Shown one piece after another: positions 6,239 to 47,328 of a stretch of 64,000 nucleotides of DNA. This stretch comes from a virus (Duplodnaviria; Caudoviricetes): the IMG/VR virus record IMGVR_UViG_3300021387_000147. One strand, written 5' to 3'. A model generated the notes under the pieces. The model worked only from the letters and a program-made list of their open reading frames with translations, was not told where the DNA came from and ran no database searches. Position 1 is the stretch's first letter. Each line of letters opens with the position of its first letter. The translations under genes and the position numbers were made by a program.

Positions 6239-6255
6239 ATAATTTACCTCTAAGA

Positions 6256-6298
6256 TATTTATACAATAAAAAAAGACTCTCACTTGGAGAGTCTTAAA
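6256..6298 (-). terminator. Intrinsic terminator followed directly by a late promoter
   Basis: Stem AAGACTCT/AGAGTCTT plus T-run on the minus strand, then TATAAATA at 6256-6263. Confidence 0.7.
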
Positions 6299-6317
6299 TC
6301 TTATAGGTTAATTGTTA

Positions 6318-7226
6318 TTACTTTTCCCAAACTGCTAAGCAAGAAGGATCTTGATCATCTACTTCATAGTCAATTTCGTCTAGAGTGTCAAGTGCTTCAC
6401 ATAGGTCAGAGTATACTTCTGAGTCTACAATGTTATCTACACTTTCGTCATAGATGAATGTGACATCTGCTTCAGATTCATCAATTAAAGTCTTCAACTG
6501 TAATTCCTTTACAATATCGAATACTTCATCAATATCTTTCTTTTTCTTCTTGTCCTTCTTCTTGTCTTTCTTTTTACCACCGCAGCAACCTGCACCACAT
6601 TCATTTACCTTAGTAGATTCATCAACGTCGTCATCATCGTCTTCGCCGTCTTCATTATATTCTACTGGTTCAGCATCTTCATCTGAATAGTAAATGTTTG
6701 TTTCTGGTCCCATGATTGATGGGTCTGCGACTTCAAAACCGTCAACTTCTGTTGTAGGAACATCTTCTTCTGTAGCTGGTTCTTCTGCATCTGTTTCAGT
6801 GTCAGAAATTACATTTAAATGAGCACCGCAACATGGGCAAACAGGATCAGCCAAGTCTAATTCATATTCTTCATCAGGATCTGGTTCTGCATCTGGGTCT
6901 GCTTCAGCGTCGTCATCTTCGTCACCTTCAGCATCTTCTGCATCAGCTACCGCATCTTCAGCGTCTGCAACAATATCTTCTTCAGATTCTTCTGGAGCGA
7001 TTACACCTGTTCCACCACAAGTTTCACATTCTTCTCCATCTTCATCTTCGCCGGTACCGTCACAGTCTGGACATTCAATTTCTTCAACTGCTTCTACATC
7101 AGCATCTTCTGCAGTATCGTCAGTTTCAGTTTCATCTTCTTCGACTTTGTCATCATCGTCATCGTCTTCTGAAGCTTCACACAACCATGCTGCTTTCTTA
7201 AAATATAAATCATCGAATTTGTTCAT
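6318..7226 (-). CDS. Highly acidic late protein with a DnaJ-type Zn finger and a CPCCG module
   Basis: CPDCDGTG...CETCGGTG, PVCPCCG, D/E-rich; TATAAATA at 7246-7253. Confidence 0.7.
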   Translation of the reverse strand: MNKFDDLYFKKAAWLCEASEDDDDDDKVEEDETETDDTAEDADVEAVEEIECPDCDGTGEDEDGEECETCGGTGVIAPEESEEDIVADAEDAVADAEDAEGDEDDDAEADPDAEPDPDEEYELDLADPVCPCCGAHLNVISDTETDAEEPATEEDVPTTEVDGFEVADPSIMGPETNIYYSDEDAEPVEYNEDGEDDDDDVDESTKVNECGAGCCGGKKKDKKKDKKKKKDIDEVFDIVKELQLKTLIDESEADVTFIYDESVDNIVDSEVYSDLCEALDTLDEIDYEVDDQDPSCLAVWEK

Positions 7227-20637: not shown

Positions 20638-23600
20638 TTATTTATCATTTGGTCTCTTATATCCAAATATCTTCATAGTATCATCTTTCTTAACTGTTCT
20701 ATCACCCTTCTTTTGTTCCTTATAGTCACATCTATGTTTTGCTATAGATTTAGACCAAAGTTTAGTGATATATGCACCTGTTCCTAATGCATGACCATTC
20801 TTTGCTTTTACATTTCCATCTTTATCTGATAGCCAATCTATTACCATCTGGACGGTTCCAGCAGAAGTAGTCTTAGCTTCATCATTCAATGTAAATTCAA
20901 TATTGAAGTCATTTACATAGTTTGCATTGTTTGTATATACCCACAAATGTAAGTTATAAGTGACATCATATAAAGGAATATTCAATCCATTCTTCTTATA
21001 ATCTTCCTTGAATTCATCAGTACAATGTTCTGCTACATAAGTTTCTACTGGAATTCCCTTAGTTGAAGCACCTACAATATTTCCTTTATCATCTACAGGA
21101 ATCATTCCATTCTTAACAATATCATCAAGAGTTGCTAATGAACCTGTTGGAGATACTGATGGCAATACAATATCAACCTTAAAGCCTACACCAATTACTT
21201 CTGGAAGACTATCATTCTTTGGATCTACAAATTTAACATCATAAGGTTTCTTATCATTATATTTGTGACCTTCTGAATAATACTCATCTACCTTATCTTT
21301 GTCTACTTTTGTGACAGGATGGACTAGAGTAATATCAATATCTTTTGCTTCTTTCATTATAACAGTTATTGTATCTTCAGCAACGTTTCCAGCCTTATCT
21401 ACATAACGTCTAATGATATGATTTACTCCCTTTTCCAATCTCTGTAGTGTCAAAGTGTCTTGAACTTCTCCATTTACAGTCCACTTAACTGGAATAGCAT
21501 TTGTATTAAATGATTCCATTGGAGTTGGATTTAAGATTTCAACCTTAGGTGGAATGTTATCAAAGATTATTTCTACCTTTGCGCTTGCTTTATTGCCATA
21601 ATCATCTGTATATTCATAAGCAATTGTATAAGCAATATTTCCTTCTTTATTCTTAACAATCTTCTTATTATCATCTACAGAATATGTGACCTTTGTGCAA
21701 GAGTCAATCATATAAGATACTTCATAATCACCAATCTTCTGACCAGTTAGATTATCAGTCTTATAAGATACTACTACATCTTTTCCATTTACTTTCTTTG
21801 TATATGTGACTGTCTGAACAGTGTCAACTGGTTTTCCAGTCTTTGTATCAATTACTTGTTTTAATTCAACTTCAACACCATCTACTTTAATTATTTCAAC
21901 TAATTCAGCCAAGTTATTTCCAATTGGAACTACTTTTGCCTTAGTTTCATCAATTATGTAGTTGTATTCAGTTAACTTAATATCCTTTGTAGAAACTGTA
22001 TCTAGAGTGACATCTATATTGAAATGCTTTTCTGTCTTATGAATTGTATCTTTTACAGTGACAGTAATTTCATTATTTTTCTTATTAACATAGATTTTAT
22101 CATCTTTTTCTTCTTCAATAGTAATATAGTCAATCAATGCATCAGTTGACTTAGCATTAGTCAAAGTGACAACTGGAGGTGCATCATTGAATAGAATTAC
22201 TACAGAATCACATACAGTCTTCTTTTCATTACATACCTTAATTATAGTATCTTTCTTAACAACTACATCCAAAGTATCATAATCACATTTAATACCTTCA
22301 CATAATTTCCATTCAATATTATGGTTAGGATCATTTGTCTTAATTGTATCTTTCTTTGGTTCATTGTCAATTGCAGTAATCTTTACATCTTCTTTTTCAT
22401 CGATTATATTGATTACGATAGTTGCAGTATCAGTATTTCCATTACCATCAGTGACAATAACTTTTACAGTATCTTTTGTTTTCTTTTCATAATCAATAGG
22501 ATTCTTGATTACTAATGTATCATCCTTAAATTCATAATTAGGGTTATCAATTACAATATAAGTTATGCTATCCTTATCCTCATCTGTTGCTGGGATTTGA
22601 CATACATTACCTACATAGTTTTCTTTAATTGTACAAGTCTTATCATCAACATGGACTGGTTCATTTACATTAGTAATTGTAATTACATATTTTAATGTAT
22701 CTTTATTATCAGCTTTATCTTTAACAACTACTGTAATTGTGACAGTTGGAGTTGTTTCATGATCAAATGGTTTTGTTGTTGTCAACTTACCAGTACTATC
22801 AATCTTAAATCCAGGTTCTTTTACACTATAGGATAATGTATCATTTTTATCTGGATCAATTGCTGTAATAATACCTATAAAACAAGTATCACAATTTTCT
22901 GGAACTTTTAATGTATCATTTGGTTGTAATACTGGAGGTTCATTAACATCTTTAATGTTTATAATTACTTTAGCGCTATCTTTATCTCCATTCTTTGTAT
23001 TAACATAGACAGTAATTGTATCTGCTTCCTTAGTTTCAAAATCAAATGGATTTACCAAGGTAAGTTTACCAGTGCTATCGATGTTATAATTAATAGAATC
23101 AGAGAGAGTAAATTTAATAGTGTCTCTAGGTCCATCTTCATCCCATGCTGTTATTGTTCCTAATACTCCTGTTGTATCTTCATTGATTGAGAATATTGTA
23201 TCTCTAACATGAACTGGTTCGTTTTCGTCGTTAATCTTTACAGACACATTCATAGTATCTTTTAATGTTCCATCAGAAACAACTACCTTGAATGTAAATT
23301 CTGTTTCCTTTTCATAGTCAAATGTTCTTGTAGATGTAATAACTCCATTGTTATCAATTTTAAATGGAACATTACCAACAATTGTATATGTTAACTTATC
23401 ACCATCTTGGTCAGTTGCTTTTACACTGTCCTTAAATGGCTTATTTTCATCAACATAGAATGTAGTATCATTCTTATCAAACTTAGGACTATCATTTGAA
23501 TTTGTAATGTTAACTGTGACGATAGCACTATCCTTCAAAGTTGGGTCATTCTTATCTTGAACTAATACTTTTAATGTATAAGTCTTCTGGTCTGCTTCAT

Positions 23601-25425
23601 AATCAAATGTTTTCTTAGCCCATAGTTCACCATCTGCATCTAATCTGAAGATGCTGGTGTCGCCTTCTAGAAGACTGAAGACGTTCTGAGTGAATTCAGA
23701 CTTAATATCAACATCAATAGCTATCAAAGTATCAATGCTCTTTGTTATAACATTATTTTCTTTTAGATCAATAGATACATCATTTATTGTAGGAGCTTCA
23801 TTAACGTCAATTACAGAAATTGGTAGATTTCTAGTAATAGAAACATTACCAGTATCTTTCAATGTGACCTTAATTACATCAGTGATTGCTTTTTCATAAT
23901 TCAAAGTATCACCAAACAAAGTCAATACACCAGTCAAACTATCTAATGTATATCTGTCAGTATATGCTGAATCCAAATAGAATCTTGTTGTTTCTGTCTT
24001 ATGTAGAACTTTAATTGAATCTACAAATCCTCTCTTATTTTCTTCAAACTTATAAGTATGAGTTGTATCGAATTCTACATTATTTTTTACATCAGCATCA
24101 ATAATTTTAATTGGTAATTCACCACTTGTTTCACCACCAGGCAAGACAGCACCACTAATACTATCAATCTTCATTACAAGAATATCATTTGTTTCTGTCA
24201 AATCATCTACTTTAACATTTATTTTAATAGTATCTAATGGAGACTTCTGACCAATAGGAATCTTTGTTGTGACTGTTGAATCACCACAAATTGGTAAATA
24301 AGGAGGCATATTGAAGTCTTCTAATGTGACTCCATCTTTAAATTCAAAGCAATATGTGAAGTATACATCAATAGTTGCTGTGTCTGATAGTTTAATTGGA
24401 ATAATAACAGTAGAGTCATTTTCCTTTAGACCACCTTGTTTATTCAATTCAGGGAAATCAAGTGTATCTGGGTCAAACTTAACGAAACGGAAATTTTCGC
24501 CTTTGAAATCGTCACCAATTTCAAGTTTGTTAGCAAGCATCTGTCCAGCAAAATCAAGATTACATTTCAAATACATTTTAGCTGTAGTAATGAATGAACC
24601 CTGAATAGGAACATTGTCAGTATTGTCAAATATAATGTCTTTGTTAGAATAAATTAAAACATTACCACGGTATTTACTTTGTGGCAAAACAGAATCACCA
24701 AGTATTACACTAATAGTAGTATGGTTACCGATAAACAAAGAATCAACGAAAATTCTTGTTAGTCGGTTCTGGGTCATGTGAATATAAATCTTACAACCAG
24801 TCTTACCATCTACGCAAGTCCAAATGTTCTTGAAATACAAGTCATATTGACCTTCTCCTTCGGGAACTTCAATAGTATCAGCTTGGTAATTATCGGTTAA
24901 AATAATGTCTTGTTGATAACCATCGGAAGGCCAAGTAATAGTAGGCATAGATAAATTAACTGGTGCTGGTGGAACACTATCACAAGACAATTTACCTTCA
25001 CCACGGGAAATACCTGTAGTTGTTGGAGCAACTGGAGTTTCTGTCAAACATATATTACCAGCAAAAATAGCCTGTTCGTTATCATTACCAGTAGTTAATG
25101 ACTTAGCACGAATAGGGCCAGTTGTGAATTGACATTGGTCACCAAGTGTAATAGTGCTATCTGTCAATACAGGACCACCTAAACTAATTCCTTCAGCAGA
25201 AGAAATTGGTCCTGACGAACCATTCCAACCTGACTTATCAGGAATGATTACACGGCGACCCATTTTAATATAGTCTGTACCATATAGCTTATACTGAAGC
25301 ATATAGTCATATTGGTCCTGTTGTAATGCAGAATCATTTGGTATATTTGAGAAATTGAATGGTCTATAATCTGCTGTGAAAGCAAATGCAACCAATAATA
25401 ATATAATTCCAATTATCTTTTTCAT
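20638..25425 (-). CDS. Secreted cadherin-repeat protein with Fibrobacter-type C-terminal domain
   Basis: Signal peptide; repeated DVNEAP, FDYE, ATDxDGD cadherin motifs; C-terminal ALGTGAYITKL...KIFGYKRP. Confidence 0.85.
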   Translation of the reverse strand: MKKIIGIILLLVAFAFTADYRPFNFSNIPNDSALQQDQYDYMLQYKLYGTDYIKMGRRVIIPDKSGWNGSSGPISSAEGISLGGPVLTDSTITLGDQCQFTTGPIRAKSLTTGNDNEQAIFAGNICLTETPVAPTTTGISRGEGKLSCDSVPPAPVNLSMPTITWPSDGYQQDIILTDNYQADTIEVPEGEGQYDLYFKNIWTCVDGKTGCKIYIHMTQNRLTRIFVDSLFIGNHTTISVILGDSVLPQSKYRGNVLIYSNKDIIFDNTDNVPIQGSFITTAKMYLKCNLDFAGQMLANKLEIGDDFKGENFRFVKFDPDTLDFPELNKQGGLKENDSTVIIPIKLSDTATIDVYFTYCFEFKDGVTLEDFNMPPYLPICGDSTVTTKIPIGQKSPLDTIKINVKVDDLTETNDILVMKIDSISGAVLPGGETSGELPIKIIDADVKNNVEFDTTHTYKFEENKRGFVDSIKVLHKTETTRFYLDSAYTDRYTLDSLTGVLTLFGDTLNYEKAITDVIKVTLKDTGNVSITRNLPISVIDVNEAPTINDVSIDLKENNVITKSIDTLIAIDVDIKSEFTQNVFSLLEGDTSIFRLDADGELWAKKTFDYEADQKTYTLKVLVQDKNDPTLKDSAIVTVNITNSNDSPKFDKNDTTFYVDENKPFKDSVKATDQDGDKLTYTIVGNVPFKIDNNGVITSTRTFDYEKETEFTFKVVVSDGTLKDTMNVSVKINDENEPVHVRDTIFSINEDTTGVLGTITAWDEDGPRDTIKFTLSDSINYNIDSTGKLTLVNPFDFETKEADTITVYVNTKNGDKDSAKVIINIKDVNEPPVLQPNDTLKVPENCDTCFIGIITAIDPDKNDTLSYSVKEPGFKIDSTGKLTTTKPFDHETTPTVTITVVVKDKADNKDTLKYVITITNVNEPVHVDDKTCTIKENYVGNVCQIPATDEDKDSITYIVIDNPNYEFKDDTLVIKNPIDYEKKTKDTVKVIVTDGNGNTDTATIVINIIDEKEDVKITAIDNEPKKDTIKTNDPNHNIEWKLCEGIKCDYDTLDVVVKKDTIIKVCNEKKTVCDSVVILFNDAPPVVTLTNAKSTDALIDYITIEEEKDDKIYVNKKNNEITVTVKDTIHKTEKHFNIDVTLDTVSTKDIKLTEYNYIIDETKAKVVPIGNNLAELVEIIKVDGVEVELKQVIDTKTGKPVDTVQTVTYTKKVNGKDVVVSYKTDNLTGQKIGDYEVSYMIDSCTKVTYSVDDNKKIVKNKEGNIAYTIAYEYTDDYGNKASAKVEIIFDNIPPKVEILNPTPMESFNTNAIPVKWTVNGEVQDTLTLQRLEKGVNHIIRRYVDKAGNVAEDTITVIMKEAKDIDITLVHPVTKVDKDKVDEYYSEGHKYNDKKPYDVKFVDPKNDSLPEVIGVGFKVDIVLPSVSPTGSLATLDDIVKNGMIPVDDKGNIVGASTKGIPVETYVAEHCTDEFKEDYKKNGLNIPLYDVTYNLHLWVYTNNANYVNDFNIEFTLNDEAKTTSAGTVQMVIDWLSDKDGNVKAKNGHALGTGAYITKLWSKSIAKHRCDYKEQKKGDRTVKKDDTMKIFGYKRPNDK

Positions 25426-27257: not shown

Positions 27258-29408
27258 TTATAAATGTTTGACTCTATCATGAATATCGCCCATTCTACCT
27301 TGTGCCATATAATTTGCATTTCCAAGATAACCACAAACTCTACGAACAACATTCATTTTAGCCAAATCTGTATTTCCACATTGTTTACACTTCCAAATAA
27401 ACTTACCATCTTCATTTCTAATCATTTCAATGGTACCTGTAGAACCACAACAATGACACCAATCCAATTCTGTATTAATTTCACAATACATAATGTTATC
27501 ATAAATGTATTTGATTACAGACAAGATAGCTTCAACGTTGTTTTCCATATTTGGAGTTTCAATATAAGAAATAGCTCCACCTGGTGACAATTTCTGTAAT
27601 TCTGCTTCAATATCAATCTTCTTAAATGCATCAATCTTTTCAAAGACAGGAACGTGATATGAATTAGTGATATAGTTTCTATCAGTAATTCCTGGAATTG
27701 TACCAAATCTACGTTGCAATGCCTTAGCAAACTTTTCAGTAGTATTTTCAATTGGAGTTCCATATACAGAATAGTCAATCTTTTCTACTTGCTTCCAATC
27801 ACGGCATTTATCATTTAATGCTTGCATGATCTTCTTACCTAGAACCATTCCATCTTCATCTGTTAAAGACTTACCAATCAAGACTTTAACAGTTTCATAT
27901 AGACCAGAATATCCTAGTGAAATAGTTGAATATCCATTATATAGTAGCTTATCAATTGTTTCACCTTTACCTAATCTTGCGAAAGCACCGTTCTGCCATA
28001 GAATTGGAGCTACATCTGATTTAACACCTCTTAAATGTTCATGACGTAATCTTAATGCTCTATGACATAATTCCAATCTCTGTTCTAGAATATACCAGAA
28101 TTTTTCTAGGTCACCCTTTGCAGATAAAGCAACATCTGGCAAATTGATAGTGACAACACCCTGATTGAAACGACCATAGTACTTAGGTTTCTTTGTCTTT
28201 GGATCTCTATATGGAGTCAAGAATGAACGGCAACCCATACATGGATAGCAATCACCTGGTTCACCTTTCTTACTAATCTTCAATTGTTTCATGACTTTTT
28301 CTGAAATATAGTCAGGAACCATTCGCTTAGTAGTACATTCTGCAGCCAATTTAGTCAAATACCAATATTTACTATCTGGTGTGATATTATCTTCTTCCAA
28401 AACATATAATAGTTTAGGGAATGGATTTGCATAATACTGGCCATTTTCATTCTTAACACCTTTCATTCTTTGTTTTAAGATTTCTTCAATGACTAATGCT
28501 AAGTTTTCCTTTTCTTGTTCATTTTCTGCTTCATTCAAATACAAACAAACAGAAACGAATGGAGTCTGACCATTTGTAGTCTGTAATGTTAGAATTTGAT
28601 ATTGTAGAGTTTGTACACCATCTCTAATATCTTTTCTTACTAAATCTTCAATTTGTGCATCATTTAATGTTGGGAATTCTGATTTAAAGTAATCTCTTGC
28701 AACATTAATGAACTTAGACAAATGAGATGCAGTAATAGTTTGTCCACCATATTGAGAAGATGCAACTTGAGCAACAATCTGAGAAGCAATATTACAAGCA
28801 TTTCTAAATGTATGTGGCTTATCAATCTGTGTTCCTGAGATAATAGTACCATTTTGTAGCATATCATCCAAGTTAATTAAACAACAGTTGTGGATAGGCA
28901 TTGCAAAGTAGTCCATATCATGGAAGTGTATAATACCTTCTTTATGAGCATGGAATATATCACTTGGAATTAAATATCTTTGTGAAATATCCTTACTTAC
29001 TTCACCTGCCATATAGTCACGCATTGTAGAAACTATATTAGGATTCTTGTTAGCATTTTCTTGTTGAATATCTTCGTTATTACCGCTGAGTAATGACATT
29101 ATTCTATCATCAATCGTATTTTTACGTTCTGATAGAGCTTTTTGGTATGTGTATACCATGTATTCATCTGACACATCATATTTTCCAGCTTTATTTATGG
29201 CATCTTTTACCATATTTTGAATATCTTTATATCCAATTGAAACTGGAGAAGCTTTACATTTTTGTTCTATATCTTTAGCAATATCTTTTATTTCTTGTAT
29301 TGTTAATCTATCTTCGATTCTTACCTTTTCATTTGCTTTTGAAATAGATTCAATAATGTTATTCTTATTAAATGTGACTTCAGAACCATTACGCTTTCTA
29401 ATTATCAT
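27258..29408 (-). CDS. nrdD: Anaerobic ribonucleoside-triphosphate reductase with ATP cone
   Basis: IRKRNG ATP cone, HNCCL, CMGCRSFL, GRFNQGVVTINLP, RRVCGYLG glycyl radical loop. Confidence 0.97.
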   Translation of the reverse strand: MIIRKRNGSEVTFNKNNIIESISKANEKVRIEDRLTIQEIKDIAKDIEQKCKASPVSIGYKDIQNMVKDAINKAGKYDVSDEYMVYTYQKALSERKNTIDDRIMSLLSGNNEDIQQENANKNPNIVSTMRDYMAGEVSKDISQRYLIPSDIFHAHKEGIIHFHDMDYFAMPIHNCCLINLDDMLQNGTIISGTQIDKPHTFRNACNIASQIVAQVASSQYGGQTITASHLSKFINVARDYFKSEFPTLNDAQIEDLVRKDIRDGVQTLQYQILTLQTTNGQTPFVSVCLYLNEAENEQEKENLALVIEEILKQRMKGVKNENGQYYANPFPKLLYVLEEDNITPDSKYWYLTKLAAECTTKRMVPDYISEKVMKQLKISKKGEPGDCYPCMGCRSFLTPYRDPKTKKPKYYGRFNQGVVTINLPDVALSAKGDLEKFWYILEQRLELCHRALRLRHEHLRGVKSDVAPILWQNGAFARLGKGETIDKLLYNGYSTISLGYSGLYETVKVLIGKSLTDEDGMVLGKKIMQALNDKCRDWKQVEKIDYSVYGTPIENTTEKFAKALQRRFGTIPGITDRNYITNSYHVPVFEKIDAFKKIDIEAELQKLSPGGAISYIETPNMENNVEAILSVIKYIYDNIMYCEINTELDWCHCCGSTGTIEMIRNEDGKFIWKCKQCGNTDLAKMNVVRRVCGYLGNANYMAQGRMGDIHDRVKHL

Positions 29409-33392: not shown

Positions 33393-34142
33393 TTAAACCT
33401 CCATCATAGTTTCAATTGCATTTGGAAGATGCGGATCAAAGTAAGGAATTCGAACAATATCCAGCTTAAACTTATTCTTTCGATACATATCCATAATCTT
33501 TTCAAAATGAGGACCCTTAATGCCCTTACGAATAAGTTCATTTACTTCATGATACGTAAATCCAAGTTTGTCTTCATCTGTCTTTGGCTGAAGACCATCA
33601 ATTGGAACCTTATGAACCAGTTCATAAGGAAGACCGAGGTCATCACCAATATCCATTATTTCTTCTGTAGTAAGTTTACTTAGAGCAGCGAACGAACCAG
33701 CATTATCGCCATACAAAGTTGCATAGCCAACGGTATCTTCACTCAAATTACAAGTATTTGCAACAAATCCACCAACAGTCTGAGCAACTGCATACAAAGT
33801 GCTCATACGAAGACGAGCAGGCAAATTAGTCAAAGTATCATAACTGAGTTCTACGCCCAAATTAATTGCATTGCAAAGGTCATTGAATGCATTTCCAATA
33901 TTGACTGTAGTGCTCTTAATTCCAAGAAAATCAATAAGCTTCTGACTGTCTCCAATATCCTTCTGAATACCACAGGGCATCATAACGCCAATTACGTTTT
34001 CTGGACCAATTGCTTTAGCGCAAATTGCAGCGACTACAGAACTATCCTTTCCACCAGAAATTCCAATAACTACCTTTGTCTGATGATTCTTTTCAAGAAT
34101 TGCCTTAGTCCAGTTAACACAATTACGAGTCAGAGTCTTCAT
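33393..34142 (-). CDS. nadE: NH3-dependent NAD+ synthetase
   Basis: VVIGISGGKDSSV, NLPARLRM, GYATLYGD, TDEDKLGFTY. Confidence 0.95.
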   Translation of the reverse strand: MKTLTRNCVNWTKAILEKNHQTKVVIGISGGKDSSVVAAICAKAIGPENVIGVMMPCGIQKDIGDSQKLIDFLGIKSTTVNIGNAFNDLCNAINLGVELSYDTLTNLPARLRMSTLYAVAQTVGGFVANTCNLSEDTVGYATLYGDNAGSFAALSKLTTEEIMDIGDDLGLPYELVHKVPIDGLQPKTDEDKLGFTYHEVNELIRKGIKGPHFEKIMDMYRKNKFKLDIVRIPYFDPHLPNAIETMMEV

Positions 34143-34158
34143 TTTTCTTCCTTTGTTA

Positions 34159-34695
34159 TTAAATTACTTCGATTTCCTGTGCACGAAGAACAGCGAGAGC
34201 ATGTTCCTTTGCTTCCTTTGTCACACCTTCGGTGAGCTTAGCGATAACCTTAATAGGCTTATCAGGGAACATTGCACGGAGAATTACAGCATTGGCGAGC
34301 ACACAAATTTCAGTGCAAAAACCAATCAAAACAATTTCTTCAGCCTGTGCAATAATACGCTGGAGACCTTCATTGTTCCAATCCGTATATCCAAATGTAG
34401 GCTTATCAATTACAGCCTGAACCTTTGCACCAGCAGCGTTTGCGACGTCCTGTCGAACCATCCAACCTTCAGTGCCATGAATACAATGCTTCAAGCCCTT
34501 ATCTGCAGGAAGATACTTACCTTCGAGCGAATTTTCATAAATTCCATCAACGTGAGTGTCACGAGTGAATACAACTGGACCTTGCCAATTCTTGATAAAT
34601 TCAACAATATCAGGGATAATTGCTTCAGCGTCCTTGTTTGCGAGTGCGCCTGTAATAAAATCAGGCTGAATATCAATACCAACTAGAGTCTTCAT
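34159..34695 (-). CDS. pncA: Nicotinamidase (isochorismatase family)
   Basis: IDIQPDFITGAL, TRDTH, HCIHGTEGW, DKPTFG, GFCTEICV; adjacent to nadE. Confidence 0.85.
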   Translation of the reverse strand: MKTLVGIDIQPDFITGALANKDAEAIIPDIVEFIKNWQGPVVFTRDTHVDGIYENSLEGKYLPADKGLKHCIHGTEGWMVRQDVANAAGAKVQAVIDKPTFGYTDWNNEGLQRIIAQAEEIVLIGFCTEICVLANAVILRAMFPDKPIKVIAKLTEGVTKEAKEHALAVLRAQEIEVI

Positions 34696-34776
34696 GTTTA
34701 TTTTCCTTTTTGACGTAAAAATTATTAAAAATTATGCATTTTGGCAACCCATTAAAATGTAAAATTTTCTAAATGA

Positions 34777-41495: not shown

Positions 41496-41605
41496 TATAA
41501 TATAAGTATTTTGGAATGTCCTGTCAACCCTAAAATGTGTAAAATATTGTTTACAATACCAAAAAAAGCGCCCTTGGAGACGCTTTTTGTAAATTTTTAT
41601 TAACA
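41496..41605 (-). promoter_or_regulatory. Terminator plus sigma70 promoter with TGTAAA-N6-TTTACA operators
   Basis: TTGACA-N17-TATATT; boxes at 41538-41555 and 41588-41605 (1 mismatch); hairpin AAAAAGCG/CGCTTTTT between them. Confidence 0.75.
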
Positions 41606-41621
41606 TTCTACGAACAATATG

Positions 41622-42089
41622 TTAACATTTTGTTAACACTATGCATTCCTTTTCATTTTCCTTAAAATTATGGAGAATTTTAAACATTTTGGATGCAATT
41701 TTAGCATAATCTCGATAGTTTTGAGAAATCCATATATCATTTCGTTTGTTAACGTATCTATACCATAAGTTATCCAAACATAAATTTTGTTTATAATGTT
41801 CCTCATTCACATCGATAATTTCAATTACTCCATCATCCCTTAGATAATTCTTTAGATTTTCAAACAACTTTTGGAGATTTGGAATGTGATGAATTACATT
41901 TCTCAATCTAAAAATAGATACAGAATTGTGTGGTAATTCTCCATCTTTGTTATAGATTTTGTAATCAATCACATTATAATCTAAACATGGATTTGTAGTA
42001 AAATCACATGTTTTATAACCTTTTTTAGGGTTATAACCAGAGCCATAATCAATGAATAGGCTTTGAGTCGATGAAGTCTTTGAGTGCAT
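41622..42089 (-). CDS. Class I SAM-dependent methyltransferase-like protein
   Basis: FIDYGSG motif I; LPHNSVS..RNVIHHIPN..LKNYLRDDG. Confidence 0.7.
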   Translation of the reverse strand: MHSKTSSTQSLFIDYGSGYNPKKGYKTCDFTTNPCLDYNVIDYKIYNKDGELPHNSVSIFRLRNVIHHIPNLQKLFENLKNYLRDDGVIEIIDVNEEHYKQNLCLDNLWYRYVNKRNDIWISQNYRDYAKIASKMFKILHNFKENEKECIVLTKC

Positions 42090-42891
42090 CTAAATCTAAT
42101 TCCTCATAATCTGCAGAACTATAAGTCTTATTCAATGAACTATTACCAATCTTCTTACAGTATTGTTCCCATTTACAGAAATTGCCTACTGGAGTAATAA
42201 TAATATCGGTAGCATCGTAGCCTGTATAATTACCGAAAACACCAAATTGATGGCTATTTCCTTTTTCGTCTTTCCATATATAGTCATAAAAATTACAATT
42301 GTCATCCTTAACTTTTGAAGTTCCCATCTTTTCCTGGAAATCAAAATCAGAATATCTACCCATAAGGTCTTCACAGACAACTACATAGAAATTATCAGTC
42401 AAACATGCTTTTAACAATTCAACCAATTTGTCACCTGTAGATTCATTACATTTAGGAATATTCAATCTTGTATTAGGAATATACTTTTTACATAGAAGAG
42501 CTTGATCACGTCTTCTTGCATACTGTTCAATAGAAGATACAGAAATAGCAACTTCAGTTAAACCAGCCTCAGCGTAAGATTTAATACGTTCTTCATCTAA
42601 GAGAATTCCATTAGTGACAAGACAAACATCTTCAGATACATGTGCTTTAACAGCTCTAATAATATCAGGAAGGTCTTTTCTAATAGTTGATTCTCCACCC
42701 ATGATAGTTGCACGTTTAAGAATACCAACTTTATCCATAGTTGATATTGCTTTCTGCATATCTAATTGAAGAGGATCTTTTAAAGGTTGATAACAAAAAT
42801 AACAGTTTCCATGAGGTCCAGTGGATTCATTCATGTTGCAGTTAAGATTTGTTATCACTCTATATCTAAATATTGATTTTTTAACACCCAT
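42049..42891 (-). CDS. Radical SAM enzyme with atypical CX11CX2C motif
   Basis: TNLNCNMNESTGPHGNCYFC, MGGESTIRKDL, LVTNG. Confidence 0.8.
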   Translation of the reverse strand: MGVKKSIFRYRVITNLNCNMNESTGPHGNCYFCYQPLKDPLQLDMQKAISTMDKVGILKRATIMGGESTIRKDLPDIIRAVKAHVSEDVCLVTNGILLDEERIKSYAEAGLTEVAISVSSIEQYARRRDQALLCKKYIPNTRLNIPKCNESTGDKLVELLKACLTDNFYVVVCEDLMGRYSDFDFQEKMGTSKVKDDNCNFYDYIWKDEKGNSHQFGVFGNYTGYDATDIIITPVGNFCKWEQYCKKIGNSSLNKTYSSADYEELDLDALKDFIDSKPIH

Positions 42892-43682
42892 TAGACTAAG
42901 TTAATTCCTTCAATGATTCCATCACCAAGATTATTGGCATCAGAGGTTTCATTCTTATTAATTGGAGACAATTTAATAAAGAAGTGGTCTTTATCAAAAT
43001 ACTTTTCTAATAGAGCTAAATCAAAATCATCTTCATTTACAAGAGTCATATTGATAGTAGTCTTCAAATTAGATTTTGTTCTAATTGCACCTAATTCCTC
43101 AAGAGTCATCTTATTCTTATATGGAATTAACCAATTTCTATGGTCTTCATCAAAAGAATGCAAAGAAATCTGTAATGTAGTATTACCTTCAATCCAAGAG
43201 AAATCTGTTCCCTTAATACCAATTGTAGATACGTAAATATGAACATTTGGATATTTGTCTCTTAAGATTTTTGCCGCTTTCTGAACATTATCCCAATTCA
43301 AAGCAGGTTCACCCATTCTAGTCATATTGACCTTAAATTCTTTACACTTATTTGTGTCAATTTCTGGATGAAGATTACGAATCCAATCTACTTGTTCAAC
43401 CATTTCTTCTGCAGTCAAATTACGATATTTTGCTTTCATTTGACCAGTTGCACAGAACTTACAATGAACTGGACAACCACTCATACAAGAAATACCAATC
43501 ATCCAACGTTCAGTTCTATCACCTAATTCATAATTATTAAGCTTATTTTGTTTCTTACCAATAGCATCCTTTGTATAGAATGGAAGGAATGTATCAGTAC
43601 TTTCAATTAGTTTACCGTCTGGAAGTGCAAAACAATATACACTACCATTTGCAAAGTGTCTTGCTTTCTTTTCTGTTAACAT
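42891..43682 (-). CDS. RlmN/Cfr-like radical SAM core lacking the C-terminal AACGQL segment
   Basis: LIEST, SGCPVHCKFCATG, RNLTAEEMVEQV, MGEP, VSTIG, QISLHS, IKLSPIN. Confidence 0.85.
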   Translation of the reverse strand: MLTEKKARHFANGSVYCFALPDGKLIESTDTFLPFYTKDAIGKKQNKLNNYELGDRTERWMIGISCMSGCPVHCKFCATGQMKAKYRNLTAEEMVEQVDWIRNLHPEIDTNKCKEFKVNMTRMGEPALNWDNVQKAAKILRDKYPNVHIYVSTIGIKGTDFSWIEGNTTLQISLHSFDEDHRNWLIPYKNKMTLEELGAIRTKSNLKTTINMTLVNEDDFDLALLEKYFDKDHFFIKLSPINKNETSDANNLGDGIIEGINLV

Positions 43683-43694
43683 ATATCAAATCCT

Positions 43695-43725
43695 AAAACA
43701 ATGGAGAGGTTATCTCCATTGTTTT
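43695..43725 (-). terminator. Perfect 13-bp hairpin between the peptide and rSAM genes (attenuator or stabiliser)
   Basis: AAAACAATGGAGA-N5-TCTCCATTGTTTT. Confidence 0.7.
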
Positions 43726-43740
43726 TATTTAAGTTTTTAT

Positions 43741-43875
43741 TTATTCTTCATCCTGAACTTCAAGGATTGTTGCTAGCTGTCCACATGCGGCCTGAGCTTT
43801 ACGTTCTGCTTCAGTTGCAATAGCGACTGCGTAATCATATCCTGCTTGTTCTAACTGTTCCTTAATCTTATTCAT
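43741..43875 (-). CDS. 44-aa peptide carrying the RlmN catalytic motif AACGQL (not in ORF track)
   Basis: MNKIKEQLEQAGYDYAVAIATEAERKAQAACGQLATILEVQDEE; AAGGAG RBS. Confidence 0.85.
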   Translation of the reverse strand: MNKIKEQLEQAGYDYAVAIATEAERKAQAACGQLATILEVQDEE

Positions 43876-43889
43876 CTTTTTACTCCTTA

Positions 43890-44777
43890 TTAGTTAAAAT
43901 ACTGACCGATAAAATCTACAACGCCTTCAATAGAGTCGACTGTATCATCTTCGATCACGTTTTTACCCTGCCATACCATAACATTGTATGCATCATCTAC
44001 TTTGTCTATCTGAACATAATGACCATCACCATCACAGAAACGTGCTGAGCCTTGTGATTCACCTTCATTATCTACAACGTAGTCCAATTCTGGATATGCA
44101 TCCTGAATAGCATCACGAATTGATGCTGATTCTCTCAAAACTACTGTATAACCATGTTCTGTCAATAATGACTTTGCGTATTCTACTTCCATTTTCTTCT
44201 CCTTAATTGCTTTGTTCATTTGTCCAGGACTTAAATATGATAAACCATAATCTCGTTTAGGACCTTGATATTTGTCTAATATATTTATGCACTTTTTCAA
44301 AATATCACATTGGTGCTCATTATAAATCCATCTTTTTCCAACATGTTTATTATACCAATCCATGCATTTTGTGCCTCTTTCTTCAGCTGTTGCCATCCAA
44401 TCAGCCGCCAGTTCATACATATATGTGTCTGGAGTCTTCGTGCAATCTATATTAGTACTAAATTGGTCATCAGAAGGAGCGCCCCAGAATTCACTGTGAT
44501 GCGGATTCTTCTTAATGTGTTCTCTAATTACATCATTAGCCGCGTCTTTCTGCTCTGGAGTCACTGTTCCAGTCTTTGTAAATCTACATGCCTGTCTTTT
44601 CAAATTATATGGCTCTAATTTGTCAGCATCATGCTTTGCAATTCTATCGAAATCAATATCCTTTTCTGGAATGACTCCTGCTTCTACCAATTTCTTATAA
44701 AAAAATTTAACACGTGCAATGTGGTCCATTACACGCTTTTTACAAATTTCAACAATTTCAGGATCTACGTCAATCAT
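43890..44777 (-). CDS. HD-like (DUF5662-type) domain fused to a GY-motif module
   Basis: KHDADKL, HIKKNPHHSEFW, ELAADWMA; internal MEVEYAKSLLTEHGY with AAGGAG (start 44192). Confidence 0.65.
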   Translation of the reverse strand: MIDVDPEIVEICKKRVMDHIARVKFFYKKLVEAGVIPEKDIDFDRIAKHDADKLEPYNLKRQACRFTKTGTVTPEQKDAANDVIREHIKKNPHHSEFWGAPSDDQFSTNIDCTKTPDTYMYELAADWMATAEERGTKCMDWYNKHVGKRWIYNEHQCDILKKCINILDKYQGPKRDYGLSYLSPGQMNKAIKEKKMEVEYAKSLLTEHGYTVVLRESASIRDAIQDAYPELDYVVDNEGESQGSARFCDGDGHYVQIDKVDDAYNVMVWQGKNVIEDDTVDSIEGVVDFIGQYFN

Positions 44778-46287: not shown

Positions 46288-47328
46288 TTATTCTTCCTTT
46301 AAAAAGTCGTTAATAATTTGTTCATGATGGAATGCCAGTTTAGGCAGTTCATCGATTTGGAACCATCTTGCATCACACGCATCATCCAAACCCTTTACTT
46401 TGTCCATATCCTTTTTGGAGACACGCACACTAAATGCAACGTCAACAATCTTCATACGAGGATCAAAGTTATGGCCATAAGTCTTGATTTGTCTGAAATA
46501 CTTCGGATCAATATCAATTCCAGTTTCTTCTTTGAGCTCACGCTGAGCACCAAAATTCAAGTCTGCATCAGTCTTTTCAAAAAATCCACCAGGCAATGCC
46601 CAATAATTCTTATATGGATAATTTCCACGACGAATTAGCAAAATCTTATCACCATTGTAAGCAACCGTGTCTGTAGTCACACTCGGCTCACCCCAATGAT
46701 TCTTTTCCTTCTTAACTGCATATTCCTTAAGGAATTCCTTTTCCTTTTCATTGTAATCATTTTCATTCTGAAAATAAAGTGCATTGTCCTTAATATAACG
46801 GAATACAACATGTGTAATGTAATCTCGAACGTCACTGTAATGGCATTCAGGATTTTTAAACAAAATTTCACGAACTGCTGACGAAGAAATTCCATCAGTT
46901 GCATCTTCAGCACCAATGAAAGTCACATTTGGATTTATACCAGCCGGCAGTGTAATTTCATCATTATCTTCACGATAAAATACCAAAAATTCATAATGCT
47001 TCAAAAGCAAATCCCAATTTACCCATTTTCCAGCGCAAAGCGAATGCCATTCATCTTCACCCATACAAATCGTAATCTTTTCACCACGATAATGAGCATC
47101 AAGATATGCATAAGTTCTTTTGTCTTGAATTACAATTTCATGTGCATCCAAAGACTTCTTGACCATGTTTAGGCGGTCATTTACAGAAACATTATAATTC
47201 TTTTCATCATTTTTGACAATTCCAATAATTAACTTATCAGAATTTCTCATTTCTTTCTTAATAGTGCGGATAATTGCTTCATGCGCTTTCGTAATCGGAT
47301 CAAAAGTTCCACCGTAATAGTAAATCAT
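46288..47328 (-). CDS. Bifunctional NaMN/NMN adenylyltransferase-NUDIX hydrolase
   Basis: YGGTFDPITKAH, ISSSAVR; Nudix box WALPGGF...AQRELKEETG; LAFHH. Confidence 0.9.
   Translation of the reverse strand: MIYYYGGTFDPITKAHEAIIRTIKKEMRNSDKLIIGIVKNDEKNYNVSVNDRLNMVKKSLDAHEIVIQDKRTYAYLDAHYRGEKITICMGEDEWHSLCAGKWVNWDLLLKHYEFLVFYREDNDEITLPAGINPNVTFIGAEDATDGISSSAVREILFKNPECHYSDVRDYITHVVFRYIKDNALYFQNENDYNEKEKEFLKEYAVKKEKNHWGEPSVTTDTVAYNGDKILLIRRGNYPYKNYWALPGGFFEKTDADLNFGAQRELKEETGIDIDPKYFRQIKTYGHNFDPRMKIVDVAFSVRVSKKDMDKVKGLDDACDARWFQIDELPKLAFHHEQIINDFLKEE

What the first reader, a model, noticed from the sequence alone, without database searches (positions are those of the whole stretch)
41622..43875. 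Split, order-swapped RlmN/Cfr-like radical SAM system: the catalytic AACGQL cysteine sits on a separate upstream peptide
Seen: 42891-43682 has the RlmN/Cfr core (IES, CxxxCxxCATG, RNL, MGEP, STxG, ISLH, IKLSPIN). It stops about 20 aa after the last barrel strand and lacks the C-terminal 'L..G...DIDAACGQL' segment. An unannotated 44-aa ORF directly upstream (43741-43875, strong AAGGAG RBS) reads MNKIKEQLEQAGYDYAVAIATEAERKAQAACGQLATILEVQDEE, which matches that missing segment. Because it lies 5' of the core, a frameshift or readthrough cannot join them. Known: in E. coli RlmN the AACGQL Cys355 carries the methyl group and forms a transient covalent link to RNA, which Cys118 resolves. Seen: the Cys118 position here is Gly (WMIGISCMSGC vs ATLCVSSQVGC), with a new Cys 3 residues later, and the N-terminal RNA-contacting domain is absent. 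A CX11CX2C radical SAM gene and a class I methyltransferase follow in the same operon. Inference: either a two-piece methylsynthase with an exchangeable methyl-carrier peptide, or a RiPP-like pathway in which the peptide is consumed (S-methylated or left cross-linked to a nucleotide/RNA).
Basis: partly seen in the sequence, partly recalled or inferred. Interest (0 to 1): 0.93.

Follow-up and report, generated by a model that had tools for sequence, protein, structure and literature searches.

The report
Two-piece phage RlmN-like radical SAM enzyme
This phage makes an RlmN/Cfr-type radical SAM enzyme in two pieces, a 263-residue core and a separate 44-residue peptide carrying the key cysteine; here the peptide gene lies in front of the core instead of behind it, the layout is conserved in over a hundred phage lineages, I found no paper describing it, and the target is unknown.

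Summary
The core (42891-43682, minus strand) is an RlmN/Cfr-type radical SAM domain. It lacks the N-terminal helical domain, the C-terminal cysteine loop and the resolving cysteine, which is Gly here. The 44-residue ORF at 43741-43875 matches the missing RlmN C-terminal strand plus AACGQL loop.

The split is the rule in this clade, not a local accident:
- 103 of 109 distinct related loci carry the peptide as a same-strand ORF (57 just downstream of the core, 43 after a second radical SAM gene and a methyltransferase, 3 upstream as here). A fourth (L089) has it upstream fused in frame to the core.
- The peptide has its own ATG, lies in any frame relative to the core, and is under strong purifying selection (dN/dS about 0.1).
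- A complex model docks it onto the core's last strand (0.84, best control 0.01). This may partly reflect likeness to solved RlmN.

In other lineages the peptide is fused to the core N-terminus, the methyltransferase or a second radical SAM enzyme, and once it is tandemly duplicated.

The upstream position here is a cyclic permutation of a four-gene cassette. Target and fate of the covalent intermediate remain unknown. The same two-piece system was noted earlier in this scan on other phage DNA.

The parts
43741..43875 (-). 44-aa peptide gene: small subunit with the RlmN C-terminal beta-strand (YDYAVAIA) and the AACGQL loop (single Cys31, the equivalent of RlmN Cys355)
   Evidence: ORF with its own ATG. 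hhalign to the RlmN-like C-terminus gives 93% probability, E 3.5e-7. There are 164 free-standing homologue clusters, 15 invariant positions and dN/dS of about 0.11. It docks on the core in the complex model.
43883..43888 (-). AAGGAG Shine-Dalgarno-like site, 7 nt before the peptide ATG
   Evidence: Read directly from the sequence.
43695..43725 (.). Perfect 13-bp hairpin in the 58-nt gap between peptide and core. On the minus strand the T-run is weak. It is absent from the closest relative L004, which has an 18-nt gap.
   Evidence: One RNA-library contig (run X17, sheep gut) keeps the stem, with a single change in the loop.
42891..43682 (-). 263-aa RlmN/Cfr-like radical SAM core. It has CxxxCxxC (C70, C74, C77), Gly63 at the Cys118 position, no N-terminal helical domain and no Cys355 loop. 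About 20 extra residues lie between the N-terminal beta-sheet and the cluster motif.
   Evidence: The AlphaFold model has pLDDT 89, and its 8 best PDB matches are all RlmN/Cfr.
42049..42891 (-). Second radical SAM gene (280 aa) with CX11CX2C and a MoaA-like fold. Its ATG overlaps the core's stop codon (TAATG).
   Evidence: The motif is conserved in 41 homologues, with a CX5CX2C variant. The model's best PDB matches are MoaA, TM 0.6.
41622..42089 (-). Small class I SAM-dependent methyltransferase (155 aa; the start codon is uncertain and the ORF overlaps the end of rSAM2)
   Evidence: Pfam Methyltransf_23 and PHROG 5399, E 7e-31. Homologues occur fused to the peptide in at least 17 protein clusters.
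41563..41588 (-). Terminator-like hairpin plus T-run that closes the cassette
41752..43891 (-). Extent of the block shared at DNA level (77.6% identity) with the relative L004. It starts 16 nt upstream of the peptide ATG and ends inside the methyltransferase gene. The flanking genes differ between the two phages.
   Evidence: blastn and tblastx of L004 against the window.

Best explanation
The region encodes a two-subunit class A (RlmN/Cfr-type) radical SAM enzyme.

Shown:
- The large subunit (263 aa) holds the [4Fe-4S]/SAM site and an RlmN-type barrel.
- The 44-aa peptide is the detached C-terminal segment of RlmN.
- It is a separately translated, strongly conserved gene that travels with the core.
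- In a complex model its strand (residues 13-17) pairs with the core's last strand (234-238). Its Cys31 loop lies against the end of the cluster motif (76-84) and the TRMGEP turn (121-123).

Inferred, by homology with RlmN Cys355:
- The peptide cysteine is S-methylated by SAM at the core. In cassettes that have the small methyltransferase, that enzyme may do it instead.
- A 5'-deoxyadenosyl radical abstracts a hydrogen from the S-methyl group.
- The thiomethylene radical adds to an sp2 carbon of the substrate, most simply adenine C2 or C8 in an RNA or a nucleotide.

Because the family has Gly where RlmN has the resolving Cys118, and no other conserved Cys, the covalent intermediate must be resolved by a different base or partner, or not at all.

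My odds: about 0.85 that core and peptide form one functional enzyme; about 0.55 that the peptide is released and reused rather than consumed.

In this window the peptide gene sits at the 5' end of a four-gene cassette (peptide, core, MoaA-like rSAM, methyltransferase). This is a cyclic permutation of the common order, so the order swap is a lineage-specific rearrangement.
For: Homology
- Core against RlmN-like profile: 100% probability, E 3.3e-45. Peptide against the C-terminal 37 residues of the same profile: 93%, E 3.5e-7. The two matches are consecutive.
- The 8 best structural matches of the core model are all RlmN/Cfr, TMq 0.58-0.67.

Conservation of the split
- 109 distinct loci have at least 37% core identity. 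In 57 the peptide ORF lies within 100 nt downstream, in 43 further downstream, and in 4 upstream (one of them fused in frame).
- Of the 5 without a BLAST hit, 3 are cut by contig ends and one is a divergent N-terminal fusion. Only L077 truly lacks the peptide.
- Bacterial RlmN loci, at 31-36% identity, carry the loop inside one 340-370 aa ORF.

Independent translation
- The peptide start is in frame 0, +1 or +2 relative to the core in 12, 12 and 33 cases. It has its own ATG in 54 of 57.
- Here it lies upstream, so no recoding can join the two.

Selection
- Median dN/dS is 0.11 over 925 pairs. ACGQL is invariant.

Physical pairing
- The complex model scores 0.84 against a best control of 0.01. 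That mark was reached by 58 of 80 solved complexes and 2 of 110 mismatched pairs. The runs agree in at least 81% of contacts and partner pLDDT is at least 74.
- These counts hold only roughly. My own alignments were used and ligands rode along. The pass may partly reflect likeness to the single-chain RlmN structures.

Natural fusions show that the parts work together
- Peptide-core: P0250, seen in two runs.
- Peptide-core-rSAM: P0252.
- Methyltransferase-peptide: 16 clusters. Peptide-methyltransferase: P0432.
- MoaA-like rSAM-peptide: P0415, P0418, P0424.

Cassette boundary
- DNA similarity to L004 starts 16 nt before the peptide ATG, while the flanking genes differ.

Mechanism reference: PMC9692996.
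Against: - No biochemical data exist for any member. The substrate is unknown.
- The core scores far below the RlmN/Cfr family cut-offs.
- It lacks the N-terminal RNA-binding domain and the resolving Cys that are indispensable in RlmN/Cfr. The chemistry may therefore differ from methylation.
- The complex model could pass by memory of RlmN.
- Translation of the peptide is inferred from selection, not observed. RNA-library contigs cover the region but cannot prove transcription.
- Re-fusion to the core's C-terminus is nearly absent within the clade. The one candidate, P0442, looks frame-shifted. This may mean the peptide has to stay detachable for a reason not captured here.
Confidence: 0.72

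Rival explanations
1. Sacrificial peptide. Because no resolving cysteine exists, each reaction leaves the 44-aa peptide joined through a methylene bridge to the target base, in an RNA or a nucleotide. The catalytic loop was split off so that a cheap peptide, not the enzyme, is consumed.
For: - Gly replaces Cys118 in at least 90% of cores, and the only invariant cysteines are the three cluster ligands.
- In RlmN and Cfr the loss of this Cys traps the covalent protein-RNA adduct (PMC9692996).
- One Vibrio phage (D479) encodes two tandem copies of the peptide in one ORF.
- In this window the peptide has the stronger ribosome-binding site and is followed by a hairpin.
- Fusion to the core's own C-terminus is almost absent.
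Against: - Natural in-frame fusions to the core N-terminus, the methyltransferase and a second rSAM would make whole enzymes suicidal.
- In about 95% of loci the peptide is the distal gene with no sign of excess expression, and the hairpin is missing in the closest relative.
- Cys118 is thought to act as a general base, a role another residue or water could take.
- Unsplit relatives also lack Cys at this position: 23 of 89 representatives.
Confidence: 0.2
2. Carrier or RiPP-like reading. The peptide is the common substrate of three enzymes (methyltransferase, RlmN-like core, MoaA-like rSAM). Either the end product is a modified peptide, or the peptide is a carrier on which a group is built, as on an acyl carrier protein.
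For: - The peptide is found fused to each of the three enzymes in different lineages.
- Methyltransferase-peptide fusions recall borosin-type RiPPs (my own knowledge).
- The cassette moves as a unit.
Against: - About half of the loci have only core plus peptide, so the other two enzymes are dispensable.
- The peptide is uniformly conserved, with no leader plus variable-core pattern.
- It is homologous to an enzyme's own catalytic segment and completes its fold in the model.
- No RRE or SPASM domain, protease or exporter is seen.
- Fusions may arise simply by stop-codon loss between adjacent genes.
Confidence: 0.08
3. Decayed or accidentally fragmented RlmN gene with no function.
For: The core scores below the family cut-offs and lacks three RlmN features. 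One locus (L077) has a core with an altered C-terminal end and no peptide.
Against: - More than 2000 homologues exist, the closest 120 of uniform 257-285 aa length apart from one of 324 aa.
- There are 164 peptide clusters.
- dN/dS is about 0.11.
- Cluster and SAM motifs are intact.
- The pair is kept together down to 37% core identity, across gut, groundwater and marine phages.
- One member even hosts an intein.
Confidence: 0.01

Closest known systems
RlmN (23S rRNA A2503 / tRNA A37 C2-methyltransferase; PDB 3RFA, 4PL1, 5HR7, 6FZ6) and Cfr (PDB 9P0P): class A radical SAM methylases
   Same: The radical SAM barrel with the RlmN-specific N-terminal beta-sheet, CxxxCxxC, MGEP and SxH motifs. The AACGQL loop with the methyl-carrier Cys follows a beta-strand that pairs with the last barrel strand.
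   Different: - The Cys loop is a separate 44-aa gene product.
- The resolving Cys118 is Gly.
- The N-terminal helical RNA-binding domain is absent.
- There is an insert of about 20 residues before the cluster motif.
- The tail after the Cys is acidic, not basic (peptide net charge about -5).
- Scores lie far below the family cut-offs.
- The system is phage-borne and often travels with a MoaA-like rSAM and a small methyltransferase.
Unsplit phage RlmN-like proteins ('DDIGGGCGQLW' type, about 310-330 aa), for example in Salmonella phage Arash, Vibrio phage 166E36-1 and Stenotrophomonas phage BUCTxx99
   Same: They are phage-encoded, lack the RlmN N-terminal domain, and sit in similar accessory-gene neighbourhoods: NAMPT next door in the Vibrio phage, tRNA genes in the Stenotrophomonas phage.
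   Different: They are single chains with both cysteines (Cys at the 118 position and the loop Cys). They share only about 29-37% identity with the core here.
GrcA/YfiD, the free-standing 'spare part' copy of the C-terminal glycyl-radical segment of pyruvate formate-lyase (my own knowledge, an analogy only)
   Same: A small separate protein carries the C-terminal catalytic segment of a radical enzyme and docks onto the large subunit.
   Different: The family and the chemistry are unrelated. GrcA rescues a damaged full-length enzyme, whereas here the large subunit never has the segment.
Small carrier proteins (ACP, LysW, ThiS/MoaD) and borosin-type methyltransferase-peptide fusions (my own knowledge, an analogy only)
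   Same: A short polypeptide presents one reactive residue to one or several enzymes. It occurs free, fused or in tandem.
   Different: There is no sequence relationship, and no evidence here that anything but a methyl or methylene group is carried.

Membership tests
Class A radical SAM methylases (RlmN/Cfr; NCBIfam TIGR00048, TIGR04432) | Radical SAM core with CxxxCxxC and an RlmN/Cfr-type fold | tested here: met
   PF04055 at E 1.3e-12. hhalign to RlmN-like proteins at E 3.3e-45. The top 8 PDB fold matches are all RlmN/Cfr.
Class A radical SAM methylases (RlmN/Cfr; NCBIfam TIGR00048, TIGR04432) | Score above the curated family cut-off | tested here: not met
   TIGR00048: 74.9 bits against 290. 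TIGR04432 (Cfr): 46.6 bits against 550.
Class A radical SAM methylases (RlmN/Cfr; NCBIfam TIGR00048, TIGR04432) | Methyl-carrier cysteine (RlmN C355 / Cfr C338) on the C-terminal loop of the same chain | tested here: not met
   The core ends without it. The homologous loop is supplied by the separate 44-aa ORF. The feature is therefore present in trans but not in cis.
Class A radical SAM methylases (RlmN/Cfr; NCBIfam TIGR00048, TIGR04432) | Resolving cysteine (RlmN C118 / Cfr C105), seven residues before the first cluster Cys | tested here: not met
   Gly63 here. Gly in at least 90% of the family, with no other invariant Cys. 21 of 22 Gly-bearing representatives lack the loop in the same chain.
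Class A radical SAM methylases (RlmN/Cfr; NCBIfam TIGR00048, TIGR04432) | N-terminal helical RNA-binding domain | tested here: not met
   Matches start at model position 102 of 355 and at position 74 of 358 in the first sequence (P0349) of the RlmN-like alignment. The core model starts directly with the beta-sheet.
Class A radical SAM methylases (RlmN/Cfr; NCBIfam TIGR00048, TIGR04432) | Methylation of adenine C2/C8 at 23S A2503 or tRNA A37 | not testable with these tools
   This needs reconstitution and nucleoside mass spectrometry.
RiPP precursor plus radical SAM maturase | Precursor with a conserved leader and a variable core | tested here: not met
   The peptide is conserved along its whole length: 15 invariant and 9 nearly invariant positions of 44, with dN/dS 0.11.
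RiPP precursor plus radical SAM maturase | RRE (PqqD-like) or SPASM/twitch domain in the maturase; a protease or exporter nearby | tested here: not met
   No such Pfam domain appears in the core or rSAM2, and the NCBIfam SPASM/twitch-family hits of rSAM2 lie far below their cut-offs and cover only its N-terminal radical SAM core. No recurrent protease or transporter was found among neighbours in 37 diverse loci. The conserved C-terminal cysteines of rSAM2 (C239, C245) could still bind an auxiliary cluster.

The most novel reading that the evidence does not exclude
The peptide is a consumable warhead. With no resolving cysteine, each reaction would leave the 44-residue peptide joined by a methylene bridge to an adenine of a host RNA or of an NAD-related nucleotide. 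That would be a phage-made peptide-nucleic acid (or peptide-nucleotide) conjugate. The catalytic loop would have been split from the enzyme precisely so that it can be spent.
Probability: 0.2. Interest if true: 0.95.

Novelty: new variant of a known kind. Interest (0 to 1): 0.8.

Why it matters
Class A radical SAM methylases are defined by two cysteines in one chain. One carries the methyl group and becomes covalently linked to the RNA. The other releases it.

This is a large natural family in which the carrier cysteine has become a free 40-residue peptide and the releasing cysteine has been lost. Yet the system is strictly conserved across very different phages. This raises three points:
1. 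It offers a natural system for taking the ping-pong mechanism apart, because the methylated intermediate is a small peptide that can be isolated, labelled and swapped.
2. It poses a clear chemical question: how, or whether, the covalent intermediate is resolved without Cys118.
3. It points to an unknown phage activity on a host or phage RNA or nucleotide, often encoded beside NAD-salvage and other accessory genes.

Several cultured phages carry the split system, so it is directly testable: Kehishuvirus 'tikkala', Pectobacterium phages Arno18 and Wc4, Yersinia phage vB_YenM_P778, Moorella phage MTATph1 and Vibrio phage D479.

Tried and rejected
- Peptide alone against PDB sequences, Pfam, NCBIfam and PHROGs: no RlmN hit, because it is too short. 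Only the profile-profile comparison found the match.
- Programmed frameshift, readthrough or stop-codon recoding joining core and peptide: rejected. All three relative frames occur, the spacers often hold further stops, the peptide has its own ATG, and here it lies upstream.
- Pseudogene or assembly artefact: rejected by the census and by dN/dS.
- The +3 Cys as a 'new' resolving Cys: rejected. It also occurs in a bona fide RlmN (6fz6) that keeps Cys118, and it is Thr or Val in many family members.
- The hairpin as a conserved device for peptide excess: not supported. The closest relative has an 18-nt gap without it, and in most loci the peptide is the distal gene.
- A five-gene unit including the upstream DUF5662 gene: not supported. 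DNA similarity to L004 starts 16 nt before the peptide ATG. A DUF5662 homologue was seen near the module in only one other locus.
- Whole-genome search of the window's own genome: none is held.
- tRNA genes in the window: none.
- Expression: RNA-library contigs from two wastewater runs of one study and two sheep-gut runs cover all of 41500-44000. These are contigs, and DNA can be present in such libraries, so transcription is not shown.
- Homology between this window's rSAM2 and the peptide-fused rSAM P0415: not detectable, although both are MoaA-like in family scans.
- P0442 as a canonical core-peptide fusion: doubtful, because the linker looks frame-shifted.
- Net charge as a clue to the substrate: uninformative. 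The core median pI is 8.2 (6.4 here) and the peptide net charge is -5.
- Five literature searches found no description of a split RlmN/Cfr. Subscription-only papers are not covered.
Full report
**What is in the window.** All genes here lie on the minus strand. From 5' to 3' they are as follows.
- A 295-aa DUF5662 gene (43890-44777).
- The 44-aa ORF (43741-43875), preceded by AAGGAG.
- A perfect 13-bp hairpin (43695-43725).
- The 263-aa radical SAM core (42891-43682).
- A second radical SAM gene whose ATG overlaps the core's stop codon (42049-42891).
- A 155-aa class I methyltransferase (41622-42089).
- A terminator-like hairpin (41563-41588).
- A DNA ligase gene.

The window is from a large phage of anaerobic habitats. 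It also encodes an anaerobic ribonucleotide reductase. Near-identical DNA is found in gut, sheep-gut, wastewater and sludge metagenomes. I could not place it taxonomically. The best cultured-phage match of the core is the crAss-like Kehishuvirus 'tikkala' at 62.6%, but the cassette is mobile, so this says little about the window's own lineage.

**The core is RlmN/Cfr-like but not a regular member.**
- Its best NCBIfam hits are all RlmN/Cfr models. The scores are a quarter or less of the cut-offs and cover only residues 57-198.
- A profile of 27 family members aligns to RlmN-like proteins with E 3.3e-45, up to the last barrel strand.
- An AlphaFold model (pLDDT 89) has RlmN and Cfr as its eight best PDB matches.
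- Alignment to solved RlmN chains puts Gly63 at the position of Cys118.
- In the family the only invariant cysteines are the three cluster ligands, and the position of Cys118 is Gly in at least 90%.
- The N-terminal helical domain of RlmN is absent. About 20 extra residues precede the cluster motif.

**The peptide is the missing C-terminal segment.**
- The peptide family aligns to the last 37 residues of RlmN-like proteins, the strand plus AACGQL loop, with 93% probability and E 3.5e-7. This follows directly on the stretch matched by the core.
- The database holds 164 clusters of free-standing 38-71 aa homologues. Some were auto-named 'RlmN' by JGI.
- Fifteen positions, including ACGQL, are invariant in 50 sequences.
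- Median dN/dS is 0.11 over 925 pairs.

**The split is the conserved state; the order is not.** I collected 109 distinct loci with at least 37% core identity, from viral contigs, metagenome-assembled genomes and cultured phages.

| Position of the peptide ORF (same strand) | Loci |
|---|---|
| Within 100 nt downstream of the core | 57 |
| Further downstream, nearly always after homologues of rSAM2 and the methyltransferase | 43 |
| Upstream | 4 |
| No BLAST hit | 5 |

- One of the four upstream loci (L089) carries the peptide fused in frame to the core. This window also has the upstream order but is not among the 109 loci.
- Of the five loci without a hit, three are cut by contig ends and one is a divergent N-terminal fusion. 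Only L077 truly lacks the peptide, and its core also has an altered C-terminus.
- Bacterial RlmN genes picked up at 31-36% identity all have the loop inside a single 340-370 aa ORF.
- Cultured carriers of the split form include Kehishuvirus 'tikkala', Moorella phage MTATph1, Pectobacterium phages Arno18 and Wc4, Yersinia phage vB_YenM_P778 and Vibrio phage D479.
- Adjacent peptides start in any of the three frames relative to the core (33, 12 and 12 cases) and have their own ATG in 54 of 57. They are therefore translated independently.

**The window's order swap.** The closest relative (L004, 90% core identity) has the same order: peptide, core, rSAM2, methyltransferase. The common four-gene order is core, rSAM2, methyltransferase, peptide. 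The window therefore carries a cyclic permutation.
- DNA similarity between L004 and the window is a single block, from 16 nt upstream of the peptide ATG into the methyltransferase gene.
- The flanks differ. In L004 the cassette sits between pncA and NAMPT/nadE genes. In the window the pncA and nadE homologues are adjacent 9 kb away, and the cassette lies between the DUF5662 gene and the ligase gene.
- The peptide therefore belongs to the cassette, and the cassette moves as a unit.
- Upstream placement arose more than once: L118, L128, and the in-frame fusions P0250 (seen in two sequencing runs) and P0252.

**Physical pairing.** A complex model of core, peptide, SAM and cluster scored 0.84 against a best control of 0.01.
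- That mark was reached by 58 of 80 solved complexes and 2 of 110 mismatched pairs. The runs agree in at least 81% of contacts, and partner pLDDT is at least 74.
- The counts hold only roughly, because my own alignments and riding ligands were used.
- Peptide residues 13-17 pair with core strand 234-238. Peptide residues 11-41 touch core 76-84, the end of the cluster motif, and 121-123.
- This is the arrangement of RlmN's own C-terminal segment, so the pass may partly be memory of RlmN. It shows likeness, not binding.

**Fusions.** Searching longer proteins with the peptide profile gave 52 clusters.
- 16 are methyltransferase-peptide fusions, confirmed for P0397 at 37% identity to this window's methyltransferase.
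- One is peptide-methyltransferase (P0432).
- Three are MoaA-like rSAM-peptide fusions (P0415, P0418, P0424). In locus L171 such a fusion follows a 58%-identical core.
- Many carry other N-terminal parts.
- Credible fusions to the core's own C-terminus are nearly absent within the clade.
- Vibrio phage D479 has two tandem peptide copies in one ORF.
- One core (P0249) carries a LAGLIDADG intein inserted just before the third cluster cysteine.

**Mechanism.** In RlmN and Cfr, the loop cysteine is methylated by SAM and a hydrogen is abstracted from it. It then adds to adenine C2 or C8 as a covalent adduct. Cys118 (Cfr Cys105) is indispensable for resolving that adduct, probably as a general base (PMC9692996).

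By homology, the peptide Cys31 is the methyl carrier. What replaces Cys118 is unknown. Unsplit relatives without Cys at that position also exist, 23 of 89 representatives, so another base is plausible. The fusions argue against obligatory consumption of the peptide. The tandem copy and the rarity of C-terminal re-fusion keep the sacrificial reading alive.

**The other two genes.**
- rSAM2 keeps an unusual CX11CX2C motif, with CX5CX2C in some relatives.
- Its model is most like MoaA, TM about 0.6.
- rSAM2 and the methyltransferase are present in about 40% of loci (42 of the 109, plus L004), so the core-peptide pair is the minimal unit.

**Target.** Unknown. The loss of the RNA-binding domain and the acidic peptide tail are compatible with a non-rRNA substrate. 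NAD-salvage genes recur next to the module in about 16 loci, including deep branches. A NAMPT gene also lies next to an unsplit phage relative. RtcB lies nearby in L171. None of this identifies a substrate.

**Prior knowledge.** Five literature searches found no description of a split RlmN/Cfr. The same two-piece system was noted and followed up earlier in this scan on several other phage genomes, with matching conclusions. Specific to this window are the upstream, cyclically permuted position and the defined cassette boundary.

Noticed in passing
window 46288-47328 (NMNAT-Nudix) and about 33400-34720 (pncA, nadE); loci L004, L052, L123, L127, L128, L130-L132, L134, L135, L137, L174: NAD-salvage genes (NMNAT, NAMPT, PncA, NadE) recur within a few kb of the split RlmN-like module in about 16 loci, including the deepest branches. 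In Vibrio phage 166E36-1 a NAMPT gene lies directly upstream of an unsplit phage RlmN-like gene. This could be a shared accessory or anti-defence island, or a hint at an adenine-nucleotide substrate.
   Followed up: partly
L006 (Vibrio phage D479) 3282-3563: One ORF encodes two tandem, nearly identical copies of the cysteine peptide directly after the core gene.
   Followed up: partly
protein P0249 (601 aa, metagenomic): A family member carries a LAGLIDADG intein. It is inserted immediately before the third cluster-ligand cysteine of CxxxCxxC, which would serve as the +1 residue.
   Followed up: partly
window 42049-42891 and 41 homologues: The second radical SAM enzyme has a conserved CX11CX2C cluster motif (CX5CX2C in some relatives), a MoaA-like fold and two conserved C-terminal cysteines (C239, C245) that might bind a second cluster.
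   Followed up: partly
L171 (JGI contig, 141 kb) 5470-7049: RtcB (RNA ligase) is called as two adjacent ORFs (185 and 276 aa) and lies just downstream of a core / 101-aa ORF / rSAM-peptide fusion cassette.
   Followed up: no
L094, L112, L113, L115 (genome contigs): Cores with adjacent peptides lie on large contigs of cultured-isolate assemblies: Segatella copri HF1825, Muribaculaceae Isolate-036, Lepagella muris, and a 1.85-Mb contig of Bacteroides congonensis. This suggests integrated or persistently carried phages.
   Followed up: no
window 43890-44777: The DUF5662 gene directly upstream lies outside the block shared with L004. A 30%-identical homologue lies 2.2 kb upstream of the module in Moorella phage MTATph1.
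   Followed up: partly
window 20638-25425 and 27258-29408: There is a 1595-aa protein with cadherin and bacterial Ig domains, and a class III (anaerobic) ribonucleotide reductase NrdD with an ATP-cone domain.
   Followed up: no
L007 (Stenotrophomonas phage BUCTxx99) 2486-3445: An unsplit phage RlmN-like gene, with both cysteines present, is annotated 'prohibitin family protein' and sits inside the phage's tRNA gene cluster. The annotation looks wrong.
   Followed up: no
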